This document shows positions 44,373 through 58,734 of a stretch of 64,000 bases of DNA, piece by piece. Position numbers and translations under genes: made by a program. The stretch's first letter is position 1. Every line of letters starts with the position of its first letter. The notes beneath the pieces are model-generated. The model was not told the DNA's origin and searched no databases. It saw only the letters and a list, made by a program, of their open reading frames with translations. Source of the DNA: Planctomycetota bacterium (lineage in GTDB: Bacteria; Planctomycetota; UBA8108; SXIK01); NCBI GenBank assembly GCA_965223845.1, contig CBDCXR010000004.1, positions 3,787,334 to 3,851,333 on the forward strand, written 5' to 3'.

Positions 44373-46798
44373 TGGAGCTGAAATTGAGGCAAACTAGCGA
44401 GGAATGCGGTCACGGCGCGGACGCGATCGACGGCTCCCGCTTCGCGGTAGATCTCGAGCGCGAGCTCGCGATGCTCGACGGGGAGGGCTTGGCCGTGGAG
44501 GAGGAGCGCGAAAAACTCGACCACTCGCTCCCCGCTGTCGAGCGCCCACTGCCGCTGAAACGAGAGCGGATTCCACACGAACCGCCGATCGGCCGGAGAC
44601 CCGGGGTGGATTCCGCGGCTGAGATACTTGAGCCGCTCGAGGAGTCCGATCGTGTGCATCCAGTCGAAGCCGAGCTCCGACTCCCCCGTCGGATCGGCGA
44701 ACTCGAAGAGCTCCATTCCCGCGAGAGTGAGCTCTCGCGACGCGCGAATTCCGTCGTTGACGCTCAAGCCTCCGTCTAGCGCCCGTACCGCGCTCACAAT
44801 CGTCTCGAGCGGTGTCTTTACCTTGGCGCAGGCGTACTCGAGGCTCAGGAACTCGTCCGAGCGAAGGATCGTCCGCACGACCTCGCGCAAGTCTCCGTTC
44901 GAGTGCGCCCACGCGTCGATGACGTCGACGAGAAGATCCGGCTCTTGGTACTCGCGCGGAGAGATTCGCTCGTCCGCGTTCGTGTCGAGTCGGCGAAAGA
45001 CCGCGAGCGGTCTCCCATTCGGAAGAACGAGCGGGATCGGCATCTCCCACTCGTCGAGATCGAGCAATCCGTCACCATCGGAATCGACGCTCTCGAAGTG
45101 CGCAGCGAGCTCGGCGCGGAGAGGGTATGTGCGAGGAAGAGCGGAAAGATCGTCCGTCACGAAGAGCTGGATCAGCTTCGTTCCGACGAACTTCGCCGTG
45201 TCGCGGAAATGCGCGATTCGTCGCAAGACGAGGTCGAACTCCTCGACCGCCCGCTCCGGCGTCCGCTGATCTTCGTTGGCGGGAATCGTGAGCGCCGCCC
45301 GCGGCGGAACGGGGTTCCCGAGCGAGTCGACGCCCCCGTAGCGCGGGAGGAACAGATCTTTTCGCCCCCAATCGTGGCCGCCGTCTCGGAGTCCGGGATG
45401 GCCGAACGCGAAGGCCCACACGTACGTCCCGTCGTCCCAATTCGCCCGCGCCGGGAAGGCAAACGGCCGAGGCTCGCGCCCATCGATCGGGAATCGCGGG
45501 AGGTCGGGCTGGTCGTGAAAGCCGATGTCGTGCGGAAAAAAATGCCGCCGCTCGACCCACGCGACCGTCCAGCCCGTAAGGATGCGCGAGAGCTCCTCGA
45601 TGTCGCGCTGAGTGTACAGATGGTCCACGCCGAGCGTCGACAGCTCAAGCACTTCGCGCGCGTAGTTCTCATTCGGGGCTGCGGCGGTATTCTCGAAGCC
45701 GTTCAAGTAGATGAGCATCGCAACGCTCTTCGCCGAACCTTCGACGAGATCCGCAAAGCTCCCGAGCGCGTGACGCCGAAAGTACTCGTACTCTCGGCGC
45801 TCCATGTCCGCGGCGACAGCGAGCTGAGCGGCGCCGGTTCCGTACTTCCAGTACGCGACCGGAGCGAACTCGAACTCGGCGGGACTCAGCGTGCCGTCGG
45901 CCGTCGAGCGACCGAACTCCGCGAAGCTACGCACACCGGGATGCGCCGCGCGAAACTCACTCCACTCGCCGGCGTCGATCGTGCCGGAGCCGTCGCCATC
46001 GACGTGCCGAAACAGCTCCGCCGAACCGCGCGCGGCGACCCCCCCGCGTCGCATCCGTCCAAAAAAGAGGTCGCGGAGGGTCGTGATCTGAGTGTGAAAG
46101 TGGTTGTTCCAAAACAGCGCGAGGACGTGGAGCAGCTGCCACCGGCTCGAACGCGCGTTTTCGATCAGCATCGCTTCGAGGCGCTCGATGGGCGCGCCCG
46201 ACACCGGATCGCGAAAGCCGATGCGGAGACGATCGATGCGCTGCGCGAGCTCGGGTTCGTGGCCGACCGGATCGTAGTCGACCGGGGGGCGCAGCTGATC
46301 CTCGATATACCGCTCGAGATCGGCGCGCGTTTGAATCCGGGCGAGCAACTCCTCGTTTGGGCCGAACGTGATTCTTCTCAGTGCATGAGCGATGAGCGCG
46401 GTGTCGTCCGGGCACAGCTCGTACTTCGAGCAGCCTAGGTACCCAGAGTTGCGATCGACGCCGCAGGCGACCGGCCCCGGAGGAGCGGGCGGTGGCAGGT
46501 CGCCGAAGAGATGGCCGAGGAGATAGAGCGCATCGGAAATGTCGACGCCATCGTCGTCGTTCGCGTTGGCGGCTTCGACGCACGTCCCGCGACGGCTCTC
46601 CGCGAAGAGTGCGTTCAACACGAAGATCGGATCGGCGACGTTGACCGCACCGTCTGCGTTGGCGTCGCCGCGGCGAAACTGAACCCGGCGAACGAAGGAA
46701 TCTCCGAGCGTCGCGACCAACGGAAGGAGCGTCAAGCAGGTGACGCGCGCCGCGACCGCCAACCCTCCCCCGAACATCCTCTGTCGCTGCTCGCGCAT
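44369..46798 (-). CDS. DUF1800 domain protein with an N-terminal dockerin-like double Ca-binding repeat
   Basis: DUF1800 signature NENYAREVLELSTLGVDHLYTQRDIEELSRILTGWT. The N-terminus has RGDANADGAVNVADPIFVLNALF...ANDDDGVDISDALYLLGHLF followed by PPPAPPGPVACG. Start at MREQRQRMFGGGLAVAARVTCLTLLPLVA. Confidence 0.8.
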   Translation of the reverse strand: MREQRQRMFGGGLAVAARVTCLTLLPLVATLGDSFVRRVQFRRGDANADGAVNVADPIFVLNALFAESRRGTCVEAANANDDDGVDISDALYLLGHLFGDLPPPAPPGPVACGVDRNSGYLGCSKYELCPDDTALIAHALRRITFGPNEELLARIQTRADLERYIEDQLRPPVDYDPVGHEPELAQRIDRLRIGFRDPVSGAPIERLEAMLIENARSSRWQLLHVLALFWNNHFHTQITTLRDLFFGRMRRGGVAARGSAELFRHVDGDGSGTIDAGEWSEFRAAHPGVRSFAEFGRSTADGTLSPAEFEFAPVAYWKYGTGAAQLAVAADMERREYEYFRRHALGSFADLVEGSAKSVAMLIYLNGFENTAAAPNENYAREVLELSTLGVDHLYTQRDIEELSRILTGWTVAWVERRHFFPHDIGFHDQPDLPRFPIDGREPRPFAFPARANWDDGTYVWAFAFGHPGLRDGGHDWGRKDLFLPRYGGVDSLGNPVPPRAALTIPANEDQRTPERAVEEFDLVLRRIAHFRDTAKFVGTKLIQLFVTDDLSALPRTYPLRAELAAHFESVDSDGDGLLDLDEWEMPIPLVLPNGRPLAVFRRLDTNADERISPREYQEPDLLVDVIDAWAHSNGDLREVVRTILRSDEFLSLEYACAKVKTPLETIVSAVRALDGGLSVNDGIRASRELTLAGMELFEFADPTGESELGFDWMHTIGLLERLKYLSRGIHPGSPADRRFVWNPLSFQRQWALDSGERVVEFFALLLHGQALPVEHRELALEIYREAGAVDRVRAVTAFLASLPQFQLQ

Positions 46799-46975
46799 TC
46801 GAGTTTCGTCTCTCGCTTCGCCGGCCGATGGCACCGGTGATCTAACCGCGCATCCTCCGTCTTTCTTGTACCCGAGAACGATCTCTCGTGCGCCTCCGAA
46901 CCGCGCGCGACCTTGGCTCGGGTCGGAACTCGTGAGACGATGGCGAGAACGAAACGGCTCCGAGTTCCATCGACA

Positions 46976-48526
46976 ATGCGCTTCACCCTCGCGTTCTGCG
47001 CTCTAACTCTGGTCGTCGCGTTCTCGTCCATCGCGCGAGCCGAAGACTTCGTTCGCGGTGATGGGAACGGCGACGCGGCGGTCGACATCGCCGATCCGGT
47101 TTTCGTCTTTCTCGCCCTCTTCGGCAGCGAAGGTCCTCTACCCTGCGCCGACGCGGCGGACGCCAACGACGACGGCGCTGTCGACGTCGCGGACGTCGCC
47201 TATCTCCTCAACTATCTCTTCGGCGACGGGACCGCCCCGCCGCCGCCGGGTGACGGCCCATGCGGAGGCGTCGACCCGACGCTCGACGAGCTCGCGTGTT
47301 CGGAGCCGCTCGAACCGCCGCTCGCGAGCGGACCACCGAGGCTCCGCTGGACGGCGACGTACGCGCCGGCACGGGGACTGGAGCAGCGAACTCGGCTCCC
47401 TCTTTCGACGGAAAGCGACGACACGGTCCGCGCCGACCTCGGCGTCGCGTTTTCCCTGCTTCTCGAGGCTTCGGCACATCCGGACGGCCGCGCGCCCGTC
47501 GAGATTCTGCTCGACCCTCACACTGTCGATCCGGAAGTCCTCGCCGTACGCTGCGATCGCGATCTCCTCTCGCCCGAGGGGATCGTCCCGGCCGGCACCA
47601 ATCTCGCCCCGTGGTTCTCACGCGAGACCGAGGGCTGGATCGACCCGATCTACCTCACCCAGGAGGTCGCGCTCCGGGTCGATCGCCTCACCTCGGTAGG
47701 ACCGATCGATCCGGGTCGCCACGTGTTCACAGCGGAAGCGGTCGACACCGCTTGCGCTCGTGCGTCTCCTGCTGCGATCGCGATCGAGATCGTACCGTCG
47801 CTCGCCCCGCGGATCTCCATCGCCGCGATCGACGAGACCGGAGCTCCGCACCCCCACCACGCGGGGAGCGGCAACCTTCGCGTTTCGCCCGGAGCGGACG
47901 ACATCCTCCTCGAGATCGATGCCACCCCGAACGCCGCCGTTGAGGACGCGCCCATCGACGCGGAGAGTCTACACGTCTCGTCCTCGCCGCCGGTGGACGG
48001 CGCGGCCGATCTCACGGAACGATTCGAGCGCGTCGCACCGACTCTCTGCCGATGGCGGGGCCGCGTCCCCGTGCGCGAGCTCACGCCCGGGAACACGACG
48101 ATCACGGTTTCGCTTCGGTCGGCGAATGACGCCGCGGCGAGCAGCGTCCTCTTCACGATCGAGCTCGAGGTGTCGTACGCCCGCGACGTCCAGTCGATTT
48201 GGAACGCCAACTGCTCCGGCTGCCACGAGGGGCCGAACGCGGCGCGCGGACTCGAGCTCGTCGCGCCCGGAGAAGACCCGGAGGAAATTCGGCGCTCCTT
48301 CGTCAACGTGTTCGCTGCGGGGCCGTCGATCGAATCGGTCGCGCCGGTTCACGTCCGCCCGTTCTTTCCGCGCCGGAGCTACCTCTTTCACAAGCTCGAG
48401 GGCACGCACCTCGACGAGCCCGTCCGCGGCAGCGGCGAACGCATGCCGGCGGACGGTCCGCCGTACTTGAGTGAGGCTGCCATCCACACGGTCCGGAGCT
48501 GGATCGTCCAGGGCGCCGCTCCGTAA
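46976..48526 (+). CDS. Secreted protein with an N-terminal dockerin-like double repeat and a C-terminal PSCyt1-type (Planctomycete cytochrome c) heme-binding domain
   Basis: Signal peptide MRFTLAFCALTLVVAFSSIARA. Dockerin-like VRGDGNGDAAVDIADPVFVFLALF...DANDDGAVDVADVAYLLNYLF followed by PPPPGDGPCGG. C-terminal VQSIWNANCSGCHEG...MPADGPPYLSEAAIHTVRSWIVQGA carries CxxCH. Confidence 0.7.
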   Translation: MRFTLAFCALTLVVAFSSIARAEDFVRGDGNGDAAVDIADPVFVFLALFGSEGPLPCADAADANDDGAVDVADVAYLLNYLFGDGTAPPPPGDGPCGGVDPTLDELACSEPLEPPLASGPPRLRWTATYAPARGLEQRTRLPLSTESDDTVRADLGVAFSLLLEASAHPDGRAPVEILLDPHTVDPEVLAVRCDRDLLSPEGIVPAGTNLAPWFSRETEGWIDPIYLTQEVALRVDRLTSVGPIDPGRHVFTAEAVDTACARASPAAIAIEIVPSLAPRISIAAIDETGAPHPHHAGSGNLRVSPGADDILLEIDATPNAAVEDAPIDAESLHVSSSPPVDGAADLTERFERVAPTLCRWRGRVPVRELTPGNTTITVSLRSANDAAASSVLFTIELEVSYARDVQSIWNANCSGCHEGPNAARGLELVAPGEDPEEIRRSFVNVFAAGPSIESVAPVHVRPFFPRRSYLFHKLEGTHLDEPVRGSGERMPADGPPYLSEAAIHTVRSWIVQGAAP

Positions 48527-49317: not shown

Positions 49318-52300
49318 TCACGCCTTCGCGAGGTAGATCACAACTTCGGTTCCAGCGCCCGTGGCGGCCTTGAGGCGGAGGTCCCCTCCGTGTCCTCGCA
49401 CCGCGCCGTATGCGATCGAGAGCCCGATCCCTGAATTGCCGTCGGACAGCTTGGTCGTGAAGAACGGCTCGAGAGCGCGCTCGCGCTCGGGCTCGTTCAT
49501 CCCGGGGCCGCTGTCTCGGATGCGCACTTCAACGTACGCTCCGTCGAGAAGCCCCCCGGGATCGTCCACGAGACGAGTGTTCGACGTGCGAACGGTCAGC
49601 GTACCCGTCGTCGCCATCGCTTCTCGCGCGTTCCGAAGGATCGCCTCGAAGGCGGCGGACAGTCGATTCCGCTGCGCGCGAACCGGCCACAGTCCGACTT
49701 GCGCGCGAAAATCGACTCGCACGCCGCCCCGGCTCGCCGTCTCGGCATCGACGAGCGACTGGAGAAGAGCGTTGAGATCGATCTCCTCTTCCGGCTCCGA
49801 CGAATCGTTCGCGCTGCCGCAGAAGAGAGCCAGCCGATCGGTGAGCTCCTGGGCCTCGGTAAGACGTTCGAGCAGACGGTCGTCGACGCTGGGAGGATGT
49901 TCCTCGGAGCCGAGAAACGCGTCCAGGTGGTCGAGGATCCCGCGCAAGTCGCGAGAGAGTCGGCGCGAGAGTCCTTGGAGACTCTCGAGACGACGATCGC
50001 GCTCGCGAAGCGCCGCGACGCGCGCCTCCCGAGTCTCTTCGACGACGACGACGACACGGGTTCGTTGCCCACCCCCGATCGTGAATCCGCGCAAACGAAA
50101 GATCCGCTCGTCGGCGTCGTTCGGGCGGAACCCCTGAATCGAAAACGGTTCTCCCGCCGCGAGCATGCGAAGAGGAGCGTCGAGGTCGCGATGCGCGAAG
50201 AAGGGGAGGAGCGTGAGGGGCCGTCCGACGACATCGTCGAGTCGCGCCGGATCGATTCCGAGGCTCTCGGCGGCATTCCCGTTGAAGTCGATGACGCGGC
50301 CGCCGGCGTCGAGGACGAAAAGCGGATGGGGATAACTCGCGAACAGCGCGCGGTACCGCGTCTGTCGCCGGCGGTGCGCGAGCGACCACCGAAGCACGAT
50401 CGCCAGCGCAGCGAGCCCGACGATCGCCGCCACGGCGAGGAGCGCGCTCGTGACCCAGTCCCGCGACGGCGCGAAGCCTGCGACGGAAAACCGGTGCACG
50501 ATCGGCTCCCGGCAACTGTTGCCGTCGCGATCGCGCACCTCGACTTCGAGGACGTGATCCCCCGCGGCCAGCGGCCCCACACGAAGCGAGCTCTCGTGCG
50601 AGAACACGGACCACGGCTCGTTGTCGACGCGAGTGCGGTAGAGAAGCTCCCCGGGCGGCGTATCACCCCGGTGATCGTTCGCTCCCCACGAAAACGTGCC
50701 GACGCCGTCCTCATCGATCTCGTTCGGCAGGTCGCGGTGCGTGAAGCGAGGCGGGCGCCGCCCCTCGAGCGGTCGGTAGCGCCACACGCCTTGTCCATGA
50801 GTTCCGATGAGGAGAGTTCCCGGCTCCGAAACCGATGGAAAGACCGGCCAAACGCCGCTCCAACGATCGCCGGCCGAGCCGACGGGGACGTCGTAGAAAC
50901 ATTCGCCGTCGAAGCGGGTAAGCCCTCGATCCGTCCCGAACCAGAGATCGTCCCCGAGAGTCCTGATCGACCACACCGCGCTCGAAATCTCGCGAAAGCT
51001 CTCGACCTCGTCGCCACGGATGCGGCTCACCCCGGTGGCGGAGTCCGGGTAGCAGACCCAGATCGATCCGTCGGAACCTTCCGCGACCGACCACGTCGCG
51101 GACGAGAGCAGCCCGTCGTCGAGATCCCACTGCTGCTCCGGGACGAATCGCGGCTCGCCGACTTCCTCGCCGGAGAGAAACCGGCCACGAAAGACGCCGC
51201 GATCGGTAGCGAGCCAGAGCTCACCCGTCCGGAGGCGAAGGAGGTCGTTGACCGCGTACCGGCCGCCCTCGAGGCTCACCGTCTCGAATTGGGATCCGGT
51301 GAGCACCGAATGACGAAAGATCGCCGAGCTCGGGCCGTCGACGTCGCGGTGCGGGAGAAACCACAGCTCGCCGCGCCAATCCTTCACAATCCGGGCGATG
51401 CGGTGATCGCGAAGGCCCGGCGCGGTGACGCGGTGCCAATTGATCCCGTCGTAGACGTGCGCACCCAAGAACGCGTTCGAAGTGATCCAGACTCGTCCTT
51501 CGCCGTCTTCGGCGAGGCCGGTGACGCGCGGAAACGGAAACGACTGAATCCGTCCGCTGCGTTCGTGGAGCACGACGGCACTGTCCATGCCGGCGAAGAC
51601 GTCCCCGCCGCTGGTTTCGATGAGACTGAGAACACTCGGATGGACTCCCTCGTGCCCGGTCTCGACGTGCGACCAGCGACGCGACTCGGGATCGAAGACG
51701 GCGATTCCTCCCGGTCCCACGCGGAACCAGACGACGCCCGAGGTGTCGACGATCTCCGCCGCGAGCGCGACCGACCCGATGCCCAGCTCCGCCGCCGTCT
51801 CCCAATCGCGACCGTCCGGCGAGACGATGACTCGGCCGTCCTCGGTCGTCGCGACGTAGATGCCGTCGTGGAGGCGGAGGATCCTCGTCACGCTTCGATC
51901 CGGCGCACTCGCCGGACGCCAAACCTCGCCGTCGAGTCGAGCGAGAATGCCCGACGCCCCGGTCTCGGTGCTCGCATCGTCGCGCGGGACGAACCATCCC
52001 CACAGCTCGGCGCTCTCTTCCCCGCCGATCGGATCGCCCGCTGCTCGCCGCGGCGACGCTTCGTGCTCGACGCGGAAAAACCGCACGCAAACCTGGTCGC
52101 CGAGCCGCGGATCGACCTCCCGGCGTTCGACCCGTTTCCACCGCTTTCGACTGAGATCGCGCGTGAAGAGATCGAACGTCGTCGCGATCCAGTGGCGGCC
52201 GTCTCCGGCGACTGCGTACGCGCGGATCTCGCCGGTCACGTTGAGAAGAGGCTGATCCTCCGGGTCGAGAGGAGAGAGAGCCTCGCGGCGAATCTTGAAG

Positions 52301-52839
52301 TGACGGCGCTCCCCGCCGTCGAGAAGAAAGAGCTCGCCGAAACGTCCGCGCGCGAGAAAGAGACTCTGGCCTCGGTACACCGGTTCGAGGACGCCCTCGC
52401 CGAGGAGACGCCAGAGCACGCCCGCGCCGAGCGCGTAGATCTCCTTGAGCGACTCGGCGATCGTCGTGATGTCCGGCGCCGGATTCCCCGCCGGGAACGG
52501 AAACACGTCCCACTGCCACAGGTCGTAGCGGCACACACCGAGATTCGTCGCGGCGTAGACCTCGTTCGTGCTCGCTTGAAGGAGAGCCGTCACCGAGTTC
52601 GAGTTGAGTCCGTCCTCGCGCGAGTAGCTGTTCCAGCGCCACGCTTCGCCGAGCGCCGCTCGCAGCCGCAGAGCGCCGGCCGTCAACTCCGTCGCCGGGG
52701 CAGCTCTCGCCGGGATCGCCGGTTCGAACTGCCCCTGCGCCGGTACTACGGAGGCGCAGATGAGAGATGCACCCACACCAACCGCGGAGACCCTACGCCG
52801 AAGGCGAGCGGCAACGCAGACAGAGCGGCGTGCGTTCAA
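49318..52839 (-). CDS. Sensor histidine kinase with a periplasmic two-component-regulator beta-propeller and Y_Y_Y domain, a TM helix, PAS, HisKA and HATPase_c
   Basis: Repeated propeller blades, a Y_Y_Y-like segment, the TM helix WVTSALLAVAAIVGLAALAIVL, and a C-terminal HATPase (GPGMNEPERERALEPFFTTK, GIGLSIAYG). I chose a TTG start giving the signal MNARRSVCVAARLRRRVSAVGVGASLICASVVPAQG; the start is uncertain and the 79-aa extension was trimmed. Confidence 0.8.
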   Translation of the reverse strand: MNARRSVCVAARLRRRVSAVGVGASLICASVVPAQGQFEPAIPARAAPATELTAGALRLRAALGEAWRWNSYSREDGLNSNSVTALLQASTNEVYAATNLGVCRYDLWQWDVFPFPAGNPAPDITTIAESLKEIYALGAGVLWRLLGEGVLEPVYRGQSLFLARGRFGELFLLDGGERRHFKIRREALSPLDPEDQPLLNVTGEIRAYAVAGDGRHWIATTFDLFTRDLSRKRWKRVERREVDPRLGDQVCVRFFRVEHEASPRRAAGDPIGGEESAELWGWFVPRDDASTETGASGILARLDGEVWRPASAPDRSVTRILRLHDGIYVATTEDGRVIVSPDGRDWETAAELGIGSVALAAEIVDTSGVVWFRVGPGGIAVFDPESRRWSHVETGHEGVHPSVLSLIETSGGDVFAGMDSAVVLHERSGRIQSFPFPRVTGLAEDGEGRVWITSNAFLGAHVYDGINWHRVTAPGLRDHRIARIVKDWRGELWFLPHRDVDGPSSAIFRHSVLTGSQFETVSLEGGRYAVNDLLRLRTGELWLATDRGVFRGRFLSGEEVGEPRFVPEQQWDLDDGLLSSATWSVAEGSDGSIWVCYPDSATGVSRIRGDEVESFREISSAVWSIRTLGDDLWFGTDRGLTRFDGECFYDVPVGSAGDRWSGVWPVFPSVSEPGTLLIGTHGQGVWRYRPLEGRRPPRFTHRDLPNEIDEDGVGTFSWGANDHRGDTPPGELLYRTRVDNEPWSVFSHESSLRVGPLAAGDHVLEVEVRDRDGNSCREPIVHRFSVAGFAPSRDWVTSALLAVAAIVGLAALAIVLRWSLAHRRRQTRYRALFASYPHPLFVLDAGGRVIDFNGNAAESLGIDPARLDDVVGRPLTLLPFFAHRDLDAPLRMLAAGEPFSIQGFRPNDADERIFRLRGFTIGGGQRTRVVVVVEETREARVAALRERDRRLESLQGLSRRLSRDLRGILDHLDAFLGSEEHPPSVDDRLLERLTEAQELTDRLALFCGSANDSSEPEEEIDLNALLQSLVDAETASRGGVRVDFRAQVGLWPVRAQRNRLSAAFEAILRNAREAMATTGTLTVRTSNTRLVDDPGGLLDGAYVEVRIRDSGPGMNEPERERALEPFFTTKLSDGNSGIGLSIAYGAVRGHGGDLRLKAATGAGTEVVIYLAKA

Positions 52840-53150
52840 GGGCGGGCGGGCGGCGGATCTCCTGCAGCCGCGCTCCCCTGGGCGACCGCCGCGACTCCGG
52901 AGAGGCTCTCGGCGCGCGCGACGCGGGCGATGAATACCGCGAGCCCTGCGCCGATGCTGAGAACGACACCGAGCATAAAGAGGATGCTCCAGTAGAGGCC
53001 CGCCGCCAGACTCCCCTGCGAATCGCCGCCGTCCGATCGAGCGCTGTCCTCGACGGCCTCGCCGCACATCGCACACTGGGCGGTGAGCTCCGGTGCGAAC
53101 GCTGCAAAGGAGAGGGCGACGATGACGAACATGCGCGCGGGAGTGTTCAT
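52836..53150 (-). CDS. Small (104 aa) signal-peptide/TM protein with a CxxC motif, translationally coupled to the sensor kinase
   Basis: MNTPARMFVIVALSFAAFAPELTAQCAMCGE...LYWSILFMLGVVLSIGAGLAVFIARVA has non-Arg-rich composition. Its stop overlaps the proposed kinase TTG start (TTGA). Confidence 0.45.
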   Translation of the reverse strand: MNTPARMFVIVALSFAAFAPELTAQCAMCGEAVEDSARSDGGDSQGSLAAGLYWSILFMLGVVLSIGAGLAVFIARVARAESLSGVAAVAQGSAAAGDPPPARP

Positions 53151-53400
53151 GCTCTAATTCTATCCCGGACCGCGCGGGAGTTTCTACTCCGCCGCACGTT
53201 TCTCGGCGGACGCGGGCTGGGCCGGCTCGGTTTCGCGCGCGCCCCGGGCAGCGCGCCGCGATACGATGCGCTCGCGGTCGATTTCCGACCGATCATAGGC
53301 CCCACCCACTCGAAATCGACGAGCTCCCACGATGCCGTTTCTCCCTCGACGTCGACCCGACGAACGTGTGCGCAGAGATCGAACGCCGCACGCATACACG

Positions 53401-56085
53401 ATGTCTCCCTCCTCGATCGCGTTTCCACTCGTCGCCGGCGTGCTGGTCGCGAAACTCGCGTTCGGAGACCCGACCGCCCTCCCTCTGGACCGCGGCGCCG
53501 CGGGACTCGAGCGCGCGCTGAAGCAGCTCTCGACGACGGCGAGCGTTCTCCACGTCGTCGCCCACCCCGACGACGAAGACGGCCCGCTCCTCACCTACCT
53601 CGCGCGCGGGCGCGGTGTGCGTACGATGGCCCTCTCGCTCACACGCGGTGAAGGCGGCGCAAATCTCATCGCACCGTATTTCTTCGATGAGCTCGGCGTC
53701 CTTCGCACGCTCGAATACCTCGAGGCGAATCGCTACTACGGCGTCGAACAGTTCTTCACCCGCGCCGCAGACTACGGGTACTCGAAACAGCTCTCCGAAG
53801 CCCAGCGCAAGTGGAAGGGATCCGAGATCCTGCTCGAGGACATGGTTCGCGTGATCCGCCGCGAGCGCCCGGACGTCGTGATCTCGCGCTTCTGGGGCGG
53901 GCGGAGAGACGGTCACGGTCACCACACCCTCGCGGGTGTCCTCACGCCGGAGGCCTGCGCCGCCGCCGCGGATCCGGAACGCTTCCCCGATCAACTGCGC
54001 GAAGGGCTCTTTCCCTGGCGAGTGAAGAAGCTCTACCGCGGGAACATCCGCCCCGAGCGCCGCGCGGAGGACGCGGAGGCGTGGACGGTGAAGGTCGATG
54101 CGGGCGAGTACGATCCCCTCCTCGGGGCGTCGTACTACCAGATCGCGCGCCGGGGCTACGGTTTCCATCGCTCCCAGGGGATCCTCCATCACGACGGTCG
54201 CGCCGGCAGCCGCGTCAGCCACTACCAGCTCATTCCGGCCGACTCGGACGAGCGCGTCGTAGAGGAAAGCCTGTTCGACGGCCTCGATACGACCCTTCGC
54301 GGTCTCACCGAATACTGGAGTGGCGAGACTCCGGCTTGGCTCGTCGACGGACTCGATCGGACTGCGGACTGGATCGCCTCCGCCCGTTCAGAATTCCGCG
54401 CGGACGATCCGCCGCGTATCGTTCCCCCGCTCGCGAACGCGCTGCGCTCGGTGCGCTCGCTCTCGAGTCAACTCTTCGACACGAGCTCCGGCACGCCCGA
54501 AAGCCATCGCGAGATCGCACGGCACCTCGCGCGGAAGGAACACGAACTCGAGCGCGCGCTCAGCCTCGCGCTCGGAATCGATCTCGAGGCGGCCGCGGGG
54601 AGAGACTCGCTCACCGGTTCGTCGCCCTTCTCACGCTCGAGCACGTTCGCCCACGCGACCCCGGGACAGATGTTCGACGTCGGTGTACGCCTCGTGCATC
54701 GCAGCCGCGTCCCGGTCGAGTTTCTGAAGGCGACGCTGAGCCTACCTCCGGGTTGGAGCTCGATGCTTCGAGACGCGACTCCGCCCGACTCGAATCTCGC
54801 TTACAACGGCGAAGCCCGGGCGAAGTTCAGCGTCGCGGTACCTTCCGCAGCATCGCCCACCCGACCGTACTGGCGACGCGCATCGATTTCCGACGCGTTT
54901 TACGACGTCGTCGATTCGCTCGCGACGCTGCCGTTCGCCCCGCCGCCGGCGTCCTGCCGCGCGACGATTCGCGTCGCCGGCGTCGAGGTCTCGGTCGACA
55001 CTCCGGTCCGCCTCGTCCTTCGCGATCCGGGGCTCGGGACTCGCTATCCGCCGCTCGCCGTCGCGCCACCGGTCAGCGTTCGATTCGCCGAGGGCGCGGG
55101 GATCCTGCCGCGCGGCAGGACGCGCTACGAGCTCACCGTGACCGTCCGCGGCGACGTCGCGGGCGGCGCATCGGGCGACGTGCGCCTCCAGGTCCCCGCC
55201 GGCTGGTCCGTCGAACCGGCGAGTGCGCCGTTTCGATTCGATCGCGAGGGCGCCGAGTCGACGCTCCGCTTCACGCTCTCGGCGCCGACGGAGCCCGCCG
55301 GCGAACGGTACGAAATCCGCGCGATCGCACGCCACGCGGACCGTGAGTACTCCGAAGGCTACCGGACGATCGAAGCACGCGACGTCGGCCGCTACGATTA
55401 CTATCTACCCGCGATTCACCGAGTGCGCGTCGTCGACGTCAACCTCGCGAACGACCTCGCCATCGCTTACGTGACGGGTTCCGGAGACGACATTCCGCAG
55501 AGCCTCCGTTTCCTCGGAATCGCGCCGACGCTTCTCGATTCCGAGACGCTCCAGAGCGGTGACCTCGATCGCTTCGACGCGATCGTCGTCGGCGTTCGGG
55601 CCTACGCGGTCCGAGAAGACGTCCGCCGCGTCAACTCGCGCCTCCTCGGCTACGTCGAACGCGGCGGCGTCCTCGTCGTTCAGTACCAGACGCCCGAGTT
55701 CGATCGAAACTTCGGCCCGTATCCGTATTCGATGGGACGCGCCGAAGAAGTGAGCGAGGAAGACGCCGCGGTCCGCATCCTCGCCCCGGAACATCCGCTT
55801 TTCACACAGCCGAATGCGATCGCCGCCGCCGACTTCGACGACTGGGTTGAGCAGCGCGGCTCGAAGTTCTGGGCGACCTGGGATGAGCGATACACACCGC
55901 TTCTCGAATGCCACGACGAAGACCAGGAACCACAACGCGGCGGGATGCTCTACGCACGCTCCGGAAAGGGCGCATACATCTACAGCGCGTACGCATGGTA
56001 CCGCCAGCTTCCCGCGGGAGTTCCCGGTGCGTTCAGGATCTACGCCAACCTGCTGTCCCACCGGAGAACTCTCGAGTCTCGCTAG
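53401..56085 (+). CDS. PIG-L/LmbE-family N-acetylglucosaminyl deacetylase domain protein with a roughly 600-aa C-terminal extension
   Basis: HVVAHPDDEDG motif (zinc-binding HPDDE). The far C-terminus resembles a class-I glutamine-amidotransferase-like domain (DAIVVGVRAY...GGVLVVQYQ). Start at MSPSSIAFPLVAGVLVAKLAFG. Confidence 0.75.
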   Translation: MSPSSIAFPLVAGVLVAKLAFGDPTALPLDRGAAGLERALKQLSTTASVLHVVAHPDDEDGPLLTYLARGRGVRTMALSLTRGEGGANLIAPYFFDELGVLRTLEYLEANRYYGVEQFFTRAADYGYSKQLSEAQRKWKGSEILLEDMVRVIRRERPDVVISRFWGGRRDGHGHHTLAGVLTPEACAAAADPERFPDQLREGLFPWRVKKLYRGNIRPERRAEDAEAWTVKVDAGEYDPLLGASYYQIARRGYGFHRSQGILHHDGRAGSRVSHYQLIPADSDERVVEESLFDGLDTTLRGLTEYWSGETPAWLVDGLDRTADWIASARSEFRADDPPRIVPPLANALRSVRSLSSQLFDTSSGTPESHREIARHLARKEHELERALSLALGIDLEAAAGRDSLTGSSPFSRSSTFAHATPGQMFDVGVRLVHRSRVPVEFLKATLSLPPGWSSMLRDATPPDSNLAYNGEARAKFSVAVPSAASPTRPYWRRASISDAFYDVVDSLATLPFAPPPASCRATIRVAGVEVSVDTPVRLVLRDPGLGTRYPPLAVAPPVSVRFAEGAGILPRGRTRYELTVTVRGDVAGGASGDVRLQVPAGWSVEPASAPFRFDREGAESTLRFTLSAPTEPAGERYEIRAIARHADREYSEGYRTIEARDVGRYDYYLPAIHRVRVVDVNLANDLAIAYVTGSGDDIPQSLRFLGIAPTLLDSETLQSGDLDRFDAIVVGVRAYAVREDVRRVNSRLLGYVERGGVLVVQYQTPEFDRNFGPYPYSMGRAEEVSEEDAAVRILAPEHPLFTQPNAIAAADFDDWVEQRGSKFWATWDERYTPLLECHDEDQEPQRGGMLYARSGKGAYIYSAYAWYRQLPAGVPGAFRIYANLLSHRRTLESR

Positions 56086-56261: not shown

Positions 56262-58388
56262 TCACTCGCCCGCTTTGTCTTCGCTTCCCTCTTCGGACGA
56301 CTCGGAGTCCTCGTCCTTCTCCTTCTCCGGAGCGTACTCGAGCTCCGGAGCCGGCGGTTCACCGCCGTCGCCTTTCAAGTAGTGCTCGAACCACCGCAGC
56401 ATCCGCAGGTGGTAATCGAAGCGCGCCGCCGACTTCCGGTTGCCGTGGCCTTCTCCCGGATAGAGGACGAGGCGCACGGGTGTCTTCCCGAGATGGCGAA
56501 GGTGACGGTAGAGCTCCATCGACTGGCTCGGATGGACGCGGGTGTCCTCTTTACCGTGGAGAATGAGGAGTGGCGTGCGCGACTTCTCGACGTGGTAGAT
56601 GGGACTTCGTTCGAGGAACCATTCCCAATTGCCGTAGAGTTTCTTTCGCGCGTGGACGAGGAACATCTCGTTCGGGATGTCCGTCGTACCGAACTTCGAG
56701 ATTTGATCGCTGATACCGACGAACATCACGCCAGCCGCGAAGCGCTCGGAGTGATAGGTCGAGCACCACGCCGTCGCGAAGCCGCCGTAGGACCCGCCCG
56801 TGACACCGACTTTATCCTTGTCGACGAGTCCGATCGAAACGAGGTGATCGACGGTGTCGACGAGGTCGTCGAACTCCTTCCCCGCGTAGTCACTCTGGCC
56901 GAGCTTCGAGAACGCGACTCCGCGTCCCGTACTGCCGCGGTAGTTGGGGTGGAACACCGCAAAGCCGCGTGCCGAGGCGACCTGACCCGGTCCCGAGTAG
57001 AACGATGTCCACCCGTTTCGATCGTGAGCCTCGGGTCCACCGTGAACGCGAAGGATCAGCGGGTACCGTTCGCCCTCTTTCTCGTCGAGCGGTCGAATCA
57101 GGATCCCCTCGAGCTCGAGACCGTCGCGCGCTTTGTAGCGGACGATCTCCTGCTTCGCAAAGCGCATCGCGTCGAGCCAGTCGTTGCTCGTCGTCAAACG
57201 ACGCGGCGATTCTTCCGATGTCCGGAGCGCAAAGACCTCATTCGGGTACTCGGGATGACTCGAGAGGAACGCGATGCGCGAGCCGTCGCGCGAGATCGAG
57301 AGATCGGACGCGACGAGCGATCCCTTCTCGACGAGCACACGCGGCTTCTCGGCGTCGATGTGATACTCGCCGATCGAGCACGTCGCCCCGACCGAGGCGA
57401 TGTAGCTCACGGTGAAGTCGTCCTTCCAAACGATCGCGTCAAAGTCGCCCTCTCCCGGAAACGGAAGCTGCTTCGGCGCGCCGCCGACGGCGGGTACGAC
57501 CATGAGTCGCCCGGCGTTCGGATCGTGGATGTCCTCGGCCGAGAGAAACGCGAGCTTCGTTCCGCTCGGATTCCAGGCGAGGGGCCCGAGCTTCCCCGGC
57601 GTGTCGAAGACGGCGAAGACTTGCGCCGACTCGACGTCGACCACGTGGATCTTTCGCTTCATGAACCAGTCGTCGATGAGCGGGGTCGGCGCGATCGTGA
57701 GCGCGAGGCGGTCGCCGCGCGGCGACCAGTGAAGATCGGACGGGAATCCCTCGATCTCGAGCGCTCGCGGCTCATCGTCGCTGTTGATCGAGCCGACGAG
57801 GACGCGCGTCGGGCGAAACTCTTCTTCGTAGATCTGCTGATTGAAACCCTTCTCGACGAGAGACTTTCGATCGTCGGCGACCGGGTCGGTCGCGATGAAC
57901 GCGACGCGCTTCCCGTCCGGACTCCACGAGTAGGACGCTATGTCACTCTTATGAGAGAGAACCTTGCTCGCCTCACCACCGTCGATCGGGATGACGTAAA
58001 GACTTCGGTGAGCGTCTTTCCCGCGTTTCGCGAGAAACGAAATTCCGGTTCCGTCGGGCGTCCACTCGACTTGACCGACGCTCACTTCACCGCTCACGTA
58101 CGGTCGCGAAGTGCCGTCCGCGCCGATCACGTGAAGCTCGGCCCACGACGAGCCGGACGGCTCGGCGACCGGCGTTCTCGGGACGCGGAGAACGTACGCG
58201 ATGCGCTGCCCGTCCGGCGCGATCCGCGCGGACGAGACCATGCGGAGCTTCGCCACGTGCTCGGGAGTGAACACCTCGCCGGCGGAGTCGTTCGCGACCG
58301 GAGTGTCCGAGTCGTCCGCGGCGACGGCGAGAGTGGCGATGCTGGCGAAGAGCGCGGCGGACGCAACAAGCACAGTACGTTCGTTCAT
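56262..58388 (-). CDS. S9 family serine peptidase (prolyl oligopeptidase / acylaminoacyl-peptidase-like) with N-terminal beta-propeller
   Basis: GGSYGG nucleophile motif, catalytic Asp/His region (LILHGKEDTRV, EGHG), and a signal peptide MNERTVLVASAALFASIATLAVAADD. Confidence 0.9.
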   Translation of the reverse strand: MNERTVLVASAALFASIATLAVAADDSDTPVANDSAGEVFTPEHVAKLRMVSSARIAPDGQRIAYVLRVPRTPVAEPSGSSWAELHVIGADGTSRPYVSGEVSVGQVEWTPDGTGISFLAKRGKDAHRSLYVIPIDGGEASKVLSHKSDIASYSWSPDGKRVAFIATDPVADDRKSLVEKGFNQQIYEEEFRPTRVLVGSINSDDEPRALEIEGFPSDLHWSPRGDRLALTIAPTPLIDDWFMKRKIHVVDVESAQVFAVFDTPGKLGPLAWNPSGTKLAFLSAEDIHDPNAGRLMVVPAVGGAPKQLPFPGEGDFDAIVWKDDFTVSYIASVGATCSIGEYHIDAEKPRVLVEKGSLVASDLSISRDGSRIAFLSSHPEYPNEVFALRTSEESPRRLTTSNDWLDAMRFAKQEIVRYKARDGLELEGILIRPLDEKEGERYPLILRVHGGPEAHDRNGWTSFYSGPGQVASARGFAVFHPNYRGSTGRGVAFSKLGQSDYAGKEFDDLVDTVDHLVSIGLVDKDKVGVTGGSYGGFATAWCSTYHSERFAAGVMFVGISDQISKFGTTDIPNEMFLVHARKKLYGNWEWFLERSPIYHVEKSRTPLLILHGKEDTRVHPSQSMELYRHLRHLGKTPVRLVLYPGEGHGNRKSAARFDYHLRMLRWFEHYLKGDGGEPPAPELEYAPEKEKDEDSESSEEGSEDKAGE

Positions 58389-58734
58389 GACGATTCGTTT
58401 CCGTCGAAAGACAAGCACACCCGCAGAGCGGCGGACAAAACTCCCGCTCTGGTTGCTGGTGCGCGCAAGATCGGAGGCGCCGCCCGCATCGGAGGTCGGG
58501 TTCCGGCGCACGAAGACCATCGGATTTCGAGACCCACGGTCACGATGACCGCGCGCTTCTTCCGGGTCAACCGATTCCTAGCGTCGGCATCAGCGGGCGC
58601 GATCTTCGGCGCGGGAACGTCCAAAGCGCCGGGACGGGGTTTTCGGAACGAGCTCCACTCGTCCGGCCGCCCGCGCTTCAGCCGGACGGGGGCGCGGCGG
58701 AGAAACTGTCCGAAATCCCGACGAACGGGCCCTC

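What the first reader, a model, noticed from the sequence alone, without database searches (positions are those of the whole stretch)
52836..53150. Small CxxC membrane protein translationally coupled to a giant propeller/Y_Y_Y sensor kinase
A 104-aa ORF with realistic (non-Arg-rich) composition has a signal peptide, a CAMCGE motif and one TM helix. It ends in a TGA that overlaps the best candidate TTG start of the 1170-aa sensor kinase. No response regulator is encoded nearby. A co-translated periplasmic Cys-containing mini-protein could be an accessory or signal-modulating subunit of the kinase, for example redox- or metal-sensing.
Basis: partly seen in the sequence, partly recalled or inferred. 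Interest (0 to 1): 0.5.

Follow-up and report, generated by a model that had tools for sequence, protein, structure and literature searches.

The report
Small CxxC/selenocysteine membrane protein paired with sensor
The 104-residue ORF is a real gene for an unannotated family of tiny membrane-anchored proteins whose periplasmic Cys-x-x-Cys pair is replaced by selenocysteine in some relatives. Most members sit in cytochrome oxidase copper-assembly clusters, but this one belongs to a subfamily that travels as a two-gene unit with the giant propeller sensor next to it.

Summary
Window 52836..53150 (minus strand) encodes a 104-aa protein with a signal peptide, CAMCGE, one TM helix and a TGA that overlaps a TTG in the downstream gene's frame (cTTGA).

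- **Real gene.** GC3 is 0.80, like its neighbours. It has no Pfam or NCBIfam match. It belongs to a family of at least 557 small proteins (Planctomycetota, Bacteroidota) with both Cys invariant.
- **Selenocysteine forms.** In eight related loci, one of the two Cys codons is an in-frame TGA followed by a hairpin with GGU in or at its loop. This marks the pair as redox- or metal-active. The family matches none of the Pfam or NCBIfam models cited for families in a 2026 inventory of 119 prokaryotic selenoprotein families.
- **Main context.** Most members lie directly after sco1/senC and DUF420 (ctaM) in aa3 cytochrome oxidase clusters.
- **This subfamily.** The window gene's TM helix lacks the Pro seen in oxidase-linked members. 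It sits directly upstream of orthologues of the giant sensor in 9 of 12 assessable loci, 8 of 11 if two near-identical loci count once. It is the only neighbour conserved across these loci.
- **Limits.** The start/stop overlap is not conserved, so translational coupling is unproven. The "kinase" has no conserved phospho-acceptor His.

The accessory-subunit idea is partly supported and still inferred.

The parts
52836..53150 (-). Small gene (104 aa plus TGA stop). It is the Cys form of a CxxC/CxxU/UxxC small membrane protein family, in the sensor-linked subfamily.
   Evidence: ORF list and sequence. Homologues found. GC3 0.80 and dN/dS below 0.4.
53079..53150 (-). Predicted cleavable signal peptide, residues 1-24 (MNTPARMFVIVALSFAAFAPELTA|Q).
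   Evidence: Read from the sequence. The pattern (A/G)-x-A|(Q)C recurs across the family alignment. The cleavage site is inferred and has not been tested.
53064..53075 (-). CAMC motif (Cys26, Cys29), at positions 2 and 5 of the predicted mature protein, followed by G-E.
   Evidence: Both Cys are invariant in 28 aligned homologues. In 8 related loci one of the two codons is an in-frame TGA.
52926..53000 (-). Single transmembrane helix (about residues 51-75, GLYWSILFMLGVVLSIGAGLAVFIA) with small-xxx-small motifs. It is followed by a basic stretch (ARVAR).
   Evidence: After the CxxC pair this is the best-conserved block in the family alignment (consensus GFxWSILFMLG..F.L.GGLV; G51 conserved in at least 90%). 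AF2 helix 49-95 with pLDDT about 95. Subfamily signature without Pro.
52836..52839 (-). TTGA: the stop of the small gene overlaps a candidate TTG start of the sensor gene.
   Evidence: Sequence. The overlap is not conserved in orthologous loci.
49318..52839 (-). Giant sensor protein, 1173 aa from the TTG or 1152 aa from the GTG at 52776. Architecture: signal/anchor, periplasmic Reg_prop beta-propeller region, TM, PAS, helix without conserved His, HATPase_c.
   Evidence: Pfam results. Orthologues. Alignment of 11 orthologues.
49915..50007 (-). DHp-like helix (about residues 945-975, RERDRRLESLQGLSRRLSRDLRGILDHL). It lacks a conserved phospho-acceptor His.
   Evidence: the column where a His is expected is variable (R/A/P/A/S/E/R/T/C/Q). 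There is no invariant cytoplasmic His. No HisKA-type Pfam hit even at E<=10.
49327..49671 (-). HATPase_c (GHKL ATP-binding) domain of the sensor.
   Evidence: Pfam PF02518, E 6.9e-15, residues 1057-1171.
53157..53186 (-). Sigma-70-like promoter match TAGAAA-18-TAGAAT. It ends 7 nt before the small gene's ATG, so the transcript may be leaderless or nearly so.
   Evidence: Consensus scan only: 1 found against 0.3 expected. This is weak evidence.

Best explanation
**Shown**
- The ORF is a genuine gene. It encodes the Cys form of an unannotated family of small bitopic membrane proteins. The architecture is: cleavable signal peptide, mature N-terminus (Q)C-x-x-C-x-E facing the periplasm, a 15-25 residue Gly/acidic linker, one strongly conserved TM helix, and a short basic cytoplasmic tail.
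- The Cys pair is the functional centre. It is invariant, and in eight relatives either the first or the second Cys codon is an in-frame TGA. A hairpin with GGU in or at its apical loop follows 11-17 nt downstream, which resembles a bacterial SECIS element.
- Most members sit directly after sco1/senC and ctaM (DUF420) in aa3-type cytochrome c oxidase clusters.
- The window gene belongs to a distinct subfamily. Its TM helix lacks the Pro of the oxidase-linked type and is rich in GxxxG-like motifs. This subfamily is inherited together with orthologues of the adjacent giant propeller/PAS/HATPase sensor as a two-gene unit.

**Inferred**
- After export and signal-peptide cleavage, the mini-protein docks through its TM helix onto the sensor's membrane-spanning region.
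- It presents a membrane-proximal dithiol/disulfide (or Cu(I)-binding) centre whose state modulates the sensor. This would resemble the way MgrB, a small membrane protein with periplasmic Cys, modulates PhoQ.
- The sensor lacks a conserved phospho-acceptor His. Output is therefore probably not a classical His-Asp phosphorelay.
- The 4-nt stop/start overlap in this genome would at most add translational coupling to co-transcription. It is not a conserved feature of the module.
For: **Gene reality and family**
- Searches give at least 557 homologues with both Cys invariant.
- One search gives GC3 of 0.80, like the neighbours, and dN/dS of 0.29-0.39.
- No Pfam or NCBIfam model matches.

**Sec forms**
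- CxxU: L003, L011, L012, L013, L022, L039.
- UxxC: L021, L024.
- In each, the reading frame continues through the conserved TM helix.
- TGA also serves as the ordinary stop of the small gene in seven of the eight loci (all but L013). This argues against a recoded genetic code.

**SECIS-like hairpins**
- A perfect 6-8 bp stem with a GGUC or GGUUC loop starts 11-14 nt after the TGA in 5 of 8 Sec forms. None of about 24 Cys forms has one.
- L011 and L012 have imperfect versions and L013 a weak one.

**Oxidase context**
- sco1-DUF420-small adjacency holds in at least 17 of 24 genome loci. It also holds in L005-L009, L047 and L048.
- CtaM/DUF420 has been proposed as a copper exporter that hands copper to Sco. 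The same paper notes Sco-CtaM fusions in planctomycetes (PMC13344008).

**Sensor pairing**
- The small gene is directly upstream on the same strand in the window, L003, L010, L035, L036, L037, L038, L039 and L044.
- It is the only neighbour conserved across these loci, whose sensors are 34-54% identical.
- Small-protein clusters mirror the sensor clades, and the oxidase-linked proteins cluster apart.

**TM helix**
- After the CxxC pair, the TM helix is the best-conserved block. This fits a specific intramembrane partner.
Against: - No direct evidence of interaction or of any effect on the sensor.
- Two sensor orthologues (L001, L004) have no small gene upstream. In L022 the small gene is 3.7 kb away on the other strand.
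- Residual synteny exists between the window and L001 (the S9 peptidase), so some co-location could reflect shared ancestry.
- A small protein without the TM Pro also stands alone in L045/L046, with no sensor nearby.
- The overlap depends on an unverified TTG start. The public record uses a GTG 63 nt downstream.
- The family's dominant context points to copper or oxidase biogenesis, not signalling.
- Sec decoding rests on sequence signatures only. Whether the MAGs carry selA/selB/selC/selD could not be checked.
Confidence: 0.55

Rival explanations
1. The protein is a copper-handling or thiol-reducing factor for haem-copper oxidase assembly, like the rest of its family. It would work with Sco and CtaM/DUF420. 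Its position upstream of the sensor would then be a co-expression arrangement at most, for example the sensor regulating it. It would not be a subunit or input device of the sensor.
For: - Most family members lie directly after sco1-DUF420 in cytochrome oxidase clusters in two phyla.
- L011 and L012 place Sec forms beside a COX3-like gene, a multihaem cytochrome c and a cytochrome b.
- CtaM has been proposed to export copper to Sco (PMC13344008).
- N-terminal CxxC-x-E is plausible as a Cu(I) site. Sec occurs in metal-transport CxxC motifs of other listed selenoprotein families (PMC13188914, Table 1).
Against: - No oxidase, sco or DUF420 gene is present in the 64-kb window or in the other sensor-linked loci.
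- The sensor-linked proteins form their own sequence clusters with a different TM helix.
- The pairing persists while every other neighbour changes.
Confidence: 0.25
2. The mini-protein is a dedicated maturation or repair factor for the sensor. As a tethered thiol/selenol-disulfide exchanger, it would keep a periplasmic cysteine of the propeller domain (invariant Cys251) in the correct redox state. It would not convey a signal.
For: - Exactly one Cys in the sensor's periplasmic domain is invariant across 11 orthologues (C251).
- CxxC/CxxU motifs are typical of thiol-disulfide exchange (PMC13188914).
- The operon arrangement is conserved.
Against: - L001 and L004 keep Cys251 but have no small gene upstream.
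- A periplasmic segment of about 25 residues has no thioredoxin fold.
- There is no evidence that Cys251 is redox-active.
Confidence: 0.15
3. The ORF is a chance open frame in GC-rich DNA, or the sensor gene starts upstream and the region belongs to the sensor.
For: - Long spurious ORFs are common here. One search lists several Arg-rich ones overlapping the same stretch.
- The sensor's frame is open as far upstream as 53076.
Against: - Protein-level homologues come from hundreds of unrelated contigs.
- Codon-position GC is typical of genes.
- The small ORF is in a different frame from the sensor.
- The upstream extension of the sensor frame is Arg-rich and is not conserved in orthologues, whose N-termini start 38-52 residues before the AWRW motif.
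Confidence: 0.01

Closest known systems
MgrB-PhoQ (also SafA-PhoQ, MzrA-EnvZ): small single-pass membrane proteins that modulate sensor kinases
   Same: Both are tiny bitopic proteins with functionally important periplasmic cysteines, thought to act on a large membrane sensor through TM and periplasmic contacts (PMC8404706, PMC10576120). That is the working model proposed here.
   Different: - There is no sequence relationship.
- MgrB (47 aa) is not known to have a cleaved signal peptide, a CxxC motif or Sec forms. (The signal-peptide and CxxC points are from my own knowledge, not checked here.)
- MgrB is a regulon member, not an operon partner (PMC8404706).
- Here the partner lacks the phospho-acceptor His, and the interaction is untested.
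Sco1/SenC, TlpA, PCuAC/CtaK and CtaM (DUF420): copper delivery and thiol reduction for haem-copper oxidase assembly
   Same: Most family members are encoded directly after sco1 and DUF420. Like Sco and TlpA, they expose a Cys pair at the periplasmic face of the membrane.
   Different: - The exposed part is a peptide of about 25 residues, not a thioredoxin or cupredoxin fold.
- There is no homology (Pfam and NCBIfam negative).
- The window gene is not near any oxidase gene.
CxxU/UxxC redox selenoproteins with Cys homologues (for example SelW-like, thioredoxin- and DsbA-like families)
   Same: - The Sec/Cys pair sits at a CxxC motif.
- Cys forms far outnumber Sec forms. PMC1794560 describes this pattern for Cys-to-Sec conversions in thiol oxidoreductases.
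   Different: - There is no thioredoxin-like fold.
- The protein is membrane-tethered at the N-terminus of the mature chain.
- Either Cys can be the Sec position.
- It matches none of the Pfam or NCBIfam models cited for families in PMC13188914. The cd and PTHR models cited there were not tested.
CcmH/NrfF (cytochrome c maturation thiol reductant)
   Same: Both have a signal peptide, a periplasmic CxxC and a membrane anchor, and both have a respiratory-biogenesis context. (The CcmH architecture is from my own knowledge.)
   Different: - No Pfam CcmH hit at E<=0.1.
- The protein is much shorter.
- The motif is QCAMC or ACPxC rather than LRCxxC.
- It sits next to sco/ctaM or the sensor, not next to ccm genes.
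Reg_prop/Y_Y_Y periplasmic sensors of Bacteroides hybrid two-component systems
   Same: The partner protein has Reg_prop propeller repeats (PF07494, E 8e-12). Weak relatives P0007 and P0008 carry PF07495.
   Different: - It has no receiver or HTH domain.
- Pfam detects no HisKA and no Y_Y_Y in the window protein.
- No His is conserved in the DHp-like helix.

Membership tests
Selenoprotein family with Cys homologues (the window protein being a Cys form) | An in-frame TGA aligns with a conserved Cys of the homologues. | tested here: met
   Eight loci have one. CxxU: L003, L011, L012, L013, L022, L039. UxxC: L021, L024. The TGA lies exactly at one of the two invariant Cys columns. The window gene itself has TGT and TGC there.
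Selenoprotein family with Cys homologues (the window protein being a Cys form) | Protein-level conservation continues downstream of the TGA in the same frame. | tested here: met
   The conserved G(F)YWSILFML TM helix follows in frame in all eight loci, with no other internal stop.
Selenoprotein family with Cys homologues (the window protein being a Cys form) | A bacterial SECIS-type stem-loop with G in the apical loop lies shortly after the TGA. | tested here: met
   A 6-8 bp stem with a GGUC or GGUUC loop starts 11-14 nt after the TGA in L003, L039, L021, L024 and L022. L011 and L012 have imperfect versions and L013 a weak 4-bp stem. None of about 24 Cys forms has the strict version. bSECISearch was not available, and Rfam gave no hit.
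Selenoprotein family with Cys homologues (the window protein being a Cys form) | The Sec-decoding machinery (selA, selB, selC, selD) is present in the same genomes, and selenium incorporation has been demonstrated. | not testable with these tools
   Only 5-14 kb of each MAG is held. There are no experimental data.
Cytochrome c oxidase assembly cluster component (the sco1-ctaM-small module) | The gene lies directly downstream of sco1/senC and DUF420 within a cluster encoding COX subunits, CtaA and CtaB. | tested here: not met
   This is met by most relatives. It is not met by the window gene: tblastn found no COX, Sco, DUF420, CtaA or CtaB anywhere in the 64 kb.
Conserved small-protein/sensor two-gene module | The small gene lies directly upstream, on the same strand, of an orthologue of the propeller/PAS/HATPase protein. 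| tested here: met
   This holds in 9 of 12 assessable loci (8 of 11 if the near-identical L035 and L036 count once), with gaps from -4 to about +70 nt, up to about 280 nt in L010. It is the only neighbour conserved across these loci.
Translationally coupled gene pair (overlapping stop/start) | Stop/start overlap, with the overlapping codon used as the real start, conserved among orthologues. | tested here: inconclusive
   TTGA is present in the window. The TTG gives a better signal peptide than the annotated GTG, but its use is unverified. No orthologous locus shows an overlap.
Classical two-component sensor histidine kinase (for the partner protein) | A DHp/HisKA domain with a conserved phospho-acceptor His. 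| tested here: not met
   No HisKA-type Pfam hit at E<=10. No cytoplasmic His is invariant in 11 orthologues, and the expected column is variable.
Classical two-component sensor histidine kinase (for the partner protein) | A HATPase_c catalytic domain. | tested here: met
   PF02518, E 6.9e-15. N, G1 and G2 box-like motifs are visible in the sequence.
Classical two-component sensor histidine kinase (for the partner protein) | A cognate response regulator. | tested here: not met
   No receiver domain was found in the window. None is conserved beside the orthologues. One elsewhere in the genome cannot be excluded.
Reg_prop/Y_Y_Y periplasmic sensor architecture (for the partner protein) | Reg_prop repeats plus a Y_Y_Y (PF07495) domain before the TM helix. 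| tested here: inconclusive
   Reg_prop PF07494 is found at E 8.4e-12. PF07495 is not reported at E<=0.1 for the window protein. Only the distant hits P0007 and P0008 carry it.
MgrB family | Sequence homology to MgrB, and inhibition of PhoQ. | tested here: not met
   No Pfam or NCBIfam hit of any kind. The resemblance is functional analogy only.
CcmH/NrfF | A Pfam CcmH domain with the LRCxxC motif. | tested here: not met
   No Pfam hit at E<=0.1. The motif is QCAMC.

The most novel reading that the evidence does not exclude
The family is a so far undescribed prokaryotic selenoprotein family: a membrane-tethered CxxC/CxxU/UxxC peptide of about 80-110 residues. It has two lives. One subfamily works with Sco and CtaM in copper delivery to haem-copper oxidases. 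A second subfamily is the thiol/selenol (redox or copper) input subunit of a His-less, histidine-kinase-like propeller receptor. That pairing would be a new kind of two-protein signalling module in Planctomycetota.
Probability: 0.3. Interest if true: 0.8.

Novelty: new variant of a known kind. Interest (0 to 1): 0.62.

Why it matters
- **Selenoproteins.** It adds a candidate selenoprotein family that current annotation misses. Gene callers split the Sec forms into fragments of about 30 aa, as in L003. The Cys forms are all labelled 'hypothetical'.
- **Oxidase assembly.** It points to a missing component of haem-copper oxidase biogenesis in Planctomycetota and Bacteroidota. The gene sits next to Sco and CtaM/DUF420, whose own role in copper export is only now being worked out (PMC13344008).
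- **Signalling.** It gives a conserved example outside enterobacteria of a small membrane protein encoded together with a giant sensor. The Sec/Cys exchange marks which residues are likely to matter. This makes the question of how small proteins feed signals into sensors directly testable.
- **The sensor itself.** Its missing phospho-acceptor His suggests a non-canonical output. This would also explain why no response regulator is nearby.

Tried and rejected
- **Word-index search with the single protein.** It found only the protein itself. Homologues appeared only with exhaustive phmmer and then a profile search.
- **Exact look-up of P0001 and cluster look-up.** These gave no record name, so the source organism is unknown. 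It has a 7.87-Mb contig, and its relatives are Planctomycetota.
- **First genome scan with the 28-sequence alignment.** It failed because no stretch was conserved enough. A 7-sequence alignment worked.
- **The 1233-aa kinase after the small gene in Cecembia and Algoriphagus.** I tested whether it is related to the window sensor. It is not: only the ATPase domain aligns, and it does have HisKA. In another Bacteroidota contig the small gene is followed by unrelated genes. I rejected this as evidence for a general small-protein/kinase link.
- **Upstream regions of L001 and L004, translated in three frames with TGA read-through.** No small homologue was found.
- **Rfam.** It gave no SECIS hit, only RNase P RNA elsewhere in two loci.
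- **Known-family checks.** The PDB profile search and NCBIfam scans of the Sec forms with U replaced by C found nothing.
- **AlphaFold2 of the small protein.** It gave only two helices, so no fold search was run.
- **Alternative readings rejected.**
  - Lipoprotein: a Gln precedes the Cys in this subfamily, which does not fit a lipobox.
  - Recoded TGA: TGA is also the ordinary stop of the same genes.
  - Pseudogenes: eight independent loci are hit only at the two Cys codons.
- **Could not test.**
  - Whether the window genome also has an oxidase-linked paralogue.
  - Whether the MAGs with TGA forms carry the Sec machinery.
Full report
**1. The observation**

Window 52836..53150 holds a 104-codon ORF on the minus strand, with ATG at 53150 and TGA at 52838-52836. 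The product has these features:
- An N-terminus typical of a signal peptide (MNTPAR, hydrophobic core, LTA|Q).
- CAMC at residues 26-29, followed by G-E.
- A Gly/Asp/Ser-rich linker.
- One hydrophobic helix at about residues 51-75, followed by ARVAR.
- An Ala/Pro-rich tail.

AlphaFold2 with a 28-sequence alignment gives two helices (3-39 and 49-95). pLDDT is about 95 over the TM helix.

The sequence cTTGA places a TTG, in frame with the downstream gene, over the TGA stop. From that TTG the downstream protein is 1173 aa. The public record starts it at the GTG 63 nt further on (1152 aa).
- The TTG start gives a proper signal or anchor sequence: MNARRSVCVAARLRRRVSAVGVGASLICASVVPA.
- The GTG start gives a poor one.

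Codon-position GC of the small ORF is 0.71/0.58/0.80. This matches the sensor (0.72/0.51/0.79) and other neighbours. The overlapping alternative ORFs do not match.

**2. It is a conserved protein**

Pfam and NCBIfam give nothing. A word-index search finds only the protein itself.

An exhaustive phmmer search of 1.84 billion representatives finds about 30 small proteins of the same build, with E from 9e-10 to 8e-4. The shared build is:
- a signal peptide;
- (A)QCAMCxE or ACPxC;
- a short linker;
- G(F)YWSILFMLG... as the TM helix;
- a basic tail.

Both Cys are the only invariant columns. A profile search returns at least 557 members. Where a source names them, they are 'hypothetical protein' from Planctomycetota or Bacteroidota (Cecembia, Algoriphagus, Aquiflexum, Roseivirga).

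Pairwise dN/dS is 0.29-0.39 where dS is not saturated. The gene is real.

**3. Selenocysteine forms**

In the first orthologous locus examined (L003), gene callers had split the upstream frame into two genes of about 30 aa each. Read through, it gives MSQ...AAQCAL[TGA]SES...TM helix...DD*. The TGA lies exactly at the second Cys of the motif.

Translating all fetched loci with TGA read as U shows eight such cases:
- CxxU: L003, L011, L012, L013, L022, L039.
- UxxC: L021, L024.

In each case there is no other internal stop and the conserved TM helix follows in frame. TGA is also the ordinary stop of the small gene in seven of the eight loci (all but L013), so a recoded genetic code is unlikely.

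Downstream of the TGA there is a hairpin with GGU in or at the apical loop:
- In L003, L039, L021, L024 and L022 it has a perfect 6-8 bp stem and a GGUC or GGUUC loop, starting 11-14 nt after the TGA.
- L011 and L012 have imperfect versions. L013 has a weak one.
- None of about 24 Cys forms has the strict version at either Cys codon.

[quoted passage not shown] The GGUC loop is also that of E. coli fdhF, from my own knowledge.

A 2026 review lists 119 prokaryotic selenoprotein families or subfamilies with their Pfam, NCBIfam, cd or PTHR identifiers (PMC13188914). The present family, including the Sec forms with U replaced by C, matches no Pfam or NCBIfam model. The cd and PTHR models cited there were not tested. 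As far as I could check, this is an undescribed selenoprotein family, and the window protein is a Cys form of it.

The Sec machinery in the MAGs could not be examined.

**4. Where the family lives**

In Planctomycetota MAGs the order is sco1/senC - DUF420 - small gene - cytochrome c - COX2 - COX1 - ctaA - ctaB - COX3 (L005-L007).

In Bacteroidota the order is COX1 - ctaA - ctaB - COX3 - COX3 - COX4 - sco1 - DUF420 - small gene (L008, L009, L047, L048).

Of 24 Planctomycetota genome loci found with a family pattern, at least 17 have sco1-DUF420 directly upstream of the small gene.

DUF420 is CtaM, which is needed for aa3 and caa3 oxidase activity (PMC9145763). It was recently proposed to export copper that Sco then inserts. 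The same paper notes Sco-CtaM fusions in planctomycetes (PMC13344008). The family's main role is therefore most likely in copper or thiol handling for oxidase assembly. This is an inference from context.

**5. The window gene is different: a sensor-linked subfamily**

The window has no oxidase, sco or DUF420 gene. Its neighbours are:
- a divergent PIG-L/NPCBM_assoc protein;
- an S9 peptidase;
- DUF1800/DUF1501 proteins;
- TrkA and TrkH.

Orthologues of the downstream sensor came from a protein search, the genome scan (L010, L022), a metagenome scan with the periplasmic domain (L034-L041) and L044.

| Group | Loci |
|---|---|
| Small gene directly upstream, same strand (9) | window, L003 (Sec), L010, L035, L036 (near-identical to L035), L037, L038, L039 (Sec), L044 |
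| No small gene upstream (2) | L001, L004 |
| Small gene 3.7 kb away, opposite strand (1) | L022 (Sec) |
| Contig ends too close to tell | L002, L034 |

The nine make 8 of 11 if L035 and L036 count once.

An all-against-all comparison of the flanks shows that the small gene is the only neighbour conserved across loci whose sensors are 34-54% identical. An S9 peptidase is shared only by the window and L001.

Clustering of the mature parts puts all oxidase-linked proteins in one group, with a Pro in the TM helix (ILFMLSxP). The sensor-linked proteins form two groups without Pro (LG..F.L.GGLVG..VY.AR.E). These two groups mirror the two sensor clades.

Gaps between the small gene's stop and the sensor's start are:
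- -4 nt in the window, if the TTG is used;
- +9 nt in L003;
- +23 to +50 nt in L035 and L036;
- +34 nt in L039;
- +46 nt in L037 and L038;
- +69 nt in L044;
- +30 to about +280 nt in L010.

Co-transcription is therefore the conserved feature. The overlap is not.

**6. The partner is not a textbook histidine kinase**

Pfam finds Reg_prop repeats, PAS and HATPase_c, but no HisKA-type domain even at E<=10.

In an alignment of 11 orthologues, the invariant His residues (180, 216, 762, 782) all lie in the periplasmic part. The helix RERDRRLxSLRxLAxR... has a variable residue where the phospho-acceptor His is expected.

No receiver domain is found in the window, and none is conserved beside the orthologues. 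The protein is best described as a His-less, histidine-kinase-like propeller receptor with an intact-looking ATP-binding domain. One periplasmic Cys (C251) is invariant.

**7. Most likely mechanism**

Shown:
- The gene is real and the Cys/Sec pair is conserved.
- There are two subfamilies.
- The operon pairing with the sensor is conserved.

Inferred:
- The mature protein is tethered by its TM helix, with (Q)CxxCxE at the periplasmic membrane surface.
- The Cys pair is a dithiol/disulfide or Cu(I) site.
- The TM helix, the best-conserved block after the CxxC pair, docks onto a specific partner. For the oxidase-linked type that partner would be CtaM, Sco or the oxidase. For the window's type it would be the sensor's TM region.
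- The state of the Cys pair then modulates the sensor. This is comparable to MgrB and PhoQ (PMC8404706, PMC10576120).

I put this at about 0.55. The rivals are:
- an oxidase or copper factor merely co-expressed with the sensor (0.25);
- a dedicated redox maturation factor for the sensor's Cys251 (0.15);
- a non-gene (0.01 or less).

**8. Comparison with what is known, and novelty**

The protein works like two known kinds of system: small-protein modulators of sensors, and CxxC/CxxU redox or metal sites. It is a member of none of the families tested (MgrB, CcmH, Sco/TlpA, and the selenoprotein families whose models could be scanned).

I rate it a new variant of a known kind. It is an unannotated Sec/Cys small-protein family with a conserved sensor-linked subfamily.

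**9. Verdict**

- The partnership and an active Cys pair are supported.
- Conserved translational coupling is not.
- 'Kinase' needs qualification.

Interest is 0.62.

Noticed in passing
window 49318..52839 (-), especially about 49915..50007: The 'sensor kinase' and its 10 aligned orthologues have no conserved His in the cytoplasmic part and no HisKA-type Pfam domain. The column where the phospho-acceptor His is expected is variable. The protein looks like a His-less, HK-like receptor, which would explain the missing response regulator. One periplasmic Cys (C251) is invariant.
   Followed up: partly
window 53157..53186 (-): A sigma-70-like match TAGAAA-18-TAGAAT ends 7 nt before the small gene's ATG, so the transcript could be leaderless or nearly so. 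This is a consensus match only, in a 180-nt divergent intergenic region shared with the PIG-L gene.
   Followed up: no
L003 322..582, and the other Sec loci (L011, L012, L013, L021, L022, L024, L039): Gene callers split the Sec form in L003 into two genes of 30 and 33 aa. In the other Sec loci the full-length reading likewise depends on reading through the TGA. The Sec members of this family are therefore likely missed by standard annotation.
   Followed up: yes
L011 1586..6148 and L012 3194..9530: Two CxxU forms with long acidic linkers lie next to a COX3-like gene. In L012 a 1188-aa multihaem cytochrome c and a cytochrome b-like gene follow on the opposite strand. This is a third, respiratory but non-aa3-cluster context.
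   Followed up: partly
L008 6322..10023 and L047 6320..10024: In Cyclobacteriaceae (Cecembia, Algoriphagus) the oxidase-linked small gene is followed about 55 nt later by a 1233-1234-aa HisKA/HATPase kinase. Its sensor part is unrelated to the window's sensor and has no Pfam hit. It is unclear whether this is chance synteny within one family or a second small-protein/kinase link. Another Bacteroidota contig (L048) lacks it.
   Followed up: partly
window 56262..58520 (-) and L001 286..2358: An S9 prolyl-oligopeptidase-family gene (64% identical between the two) lies near the sensor in both the window and L001. In L001 it directly precedes the sensor and no small gene is present. In the window a divergent 917-aa PIG-L/NPCBM_assoc gene (53332..56085, +) lies between them.
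   Followed up: no
window 42933..46834 (-): A DUF1501/DUF1800 gene pair lies here. The DUF1800 protein carries several EF-hand motifs. A 537-aa ORF at 46913..48526 (+) has a weak cytochrome c motif.
   Followed up: no
L021 12325..12738 (-) and L024 7144..7664 (-): An RNase P RNA (bacterial class A) gene lies about 5 kb downstream of the oxidase cluster in both loci that carry UxxC forms. This indicates shared synteny between these two MAGs.
   Followed up: no
L045/L046 6001..6351: A small protein without the TM Pro (P0046, 116 aa, recorded on many contigs: the index lists it in 44 blocks of the collection) stands alone between an isochorismatase gene and an enolase-superfamily gene followed by sarcosine oxidase-like genes. 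No sensor or oxidase is nearby, so not every Pro-less member is sensor-linked.
   Followed up: no
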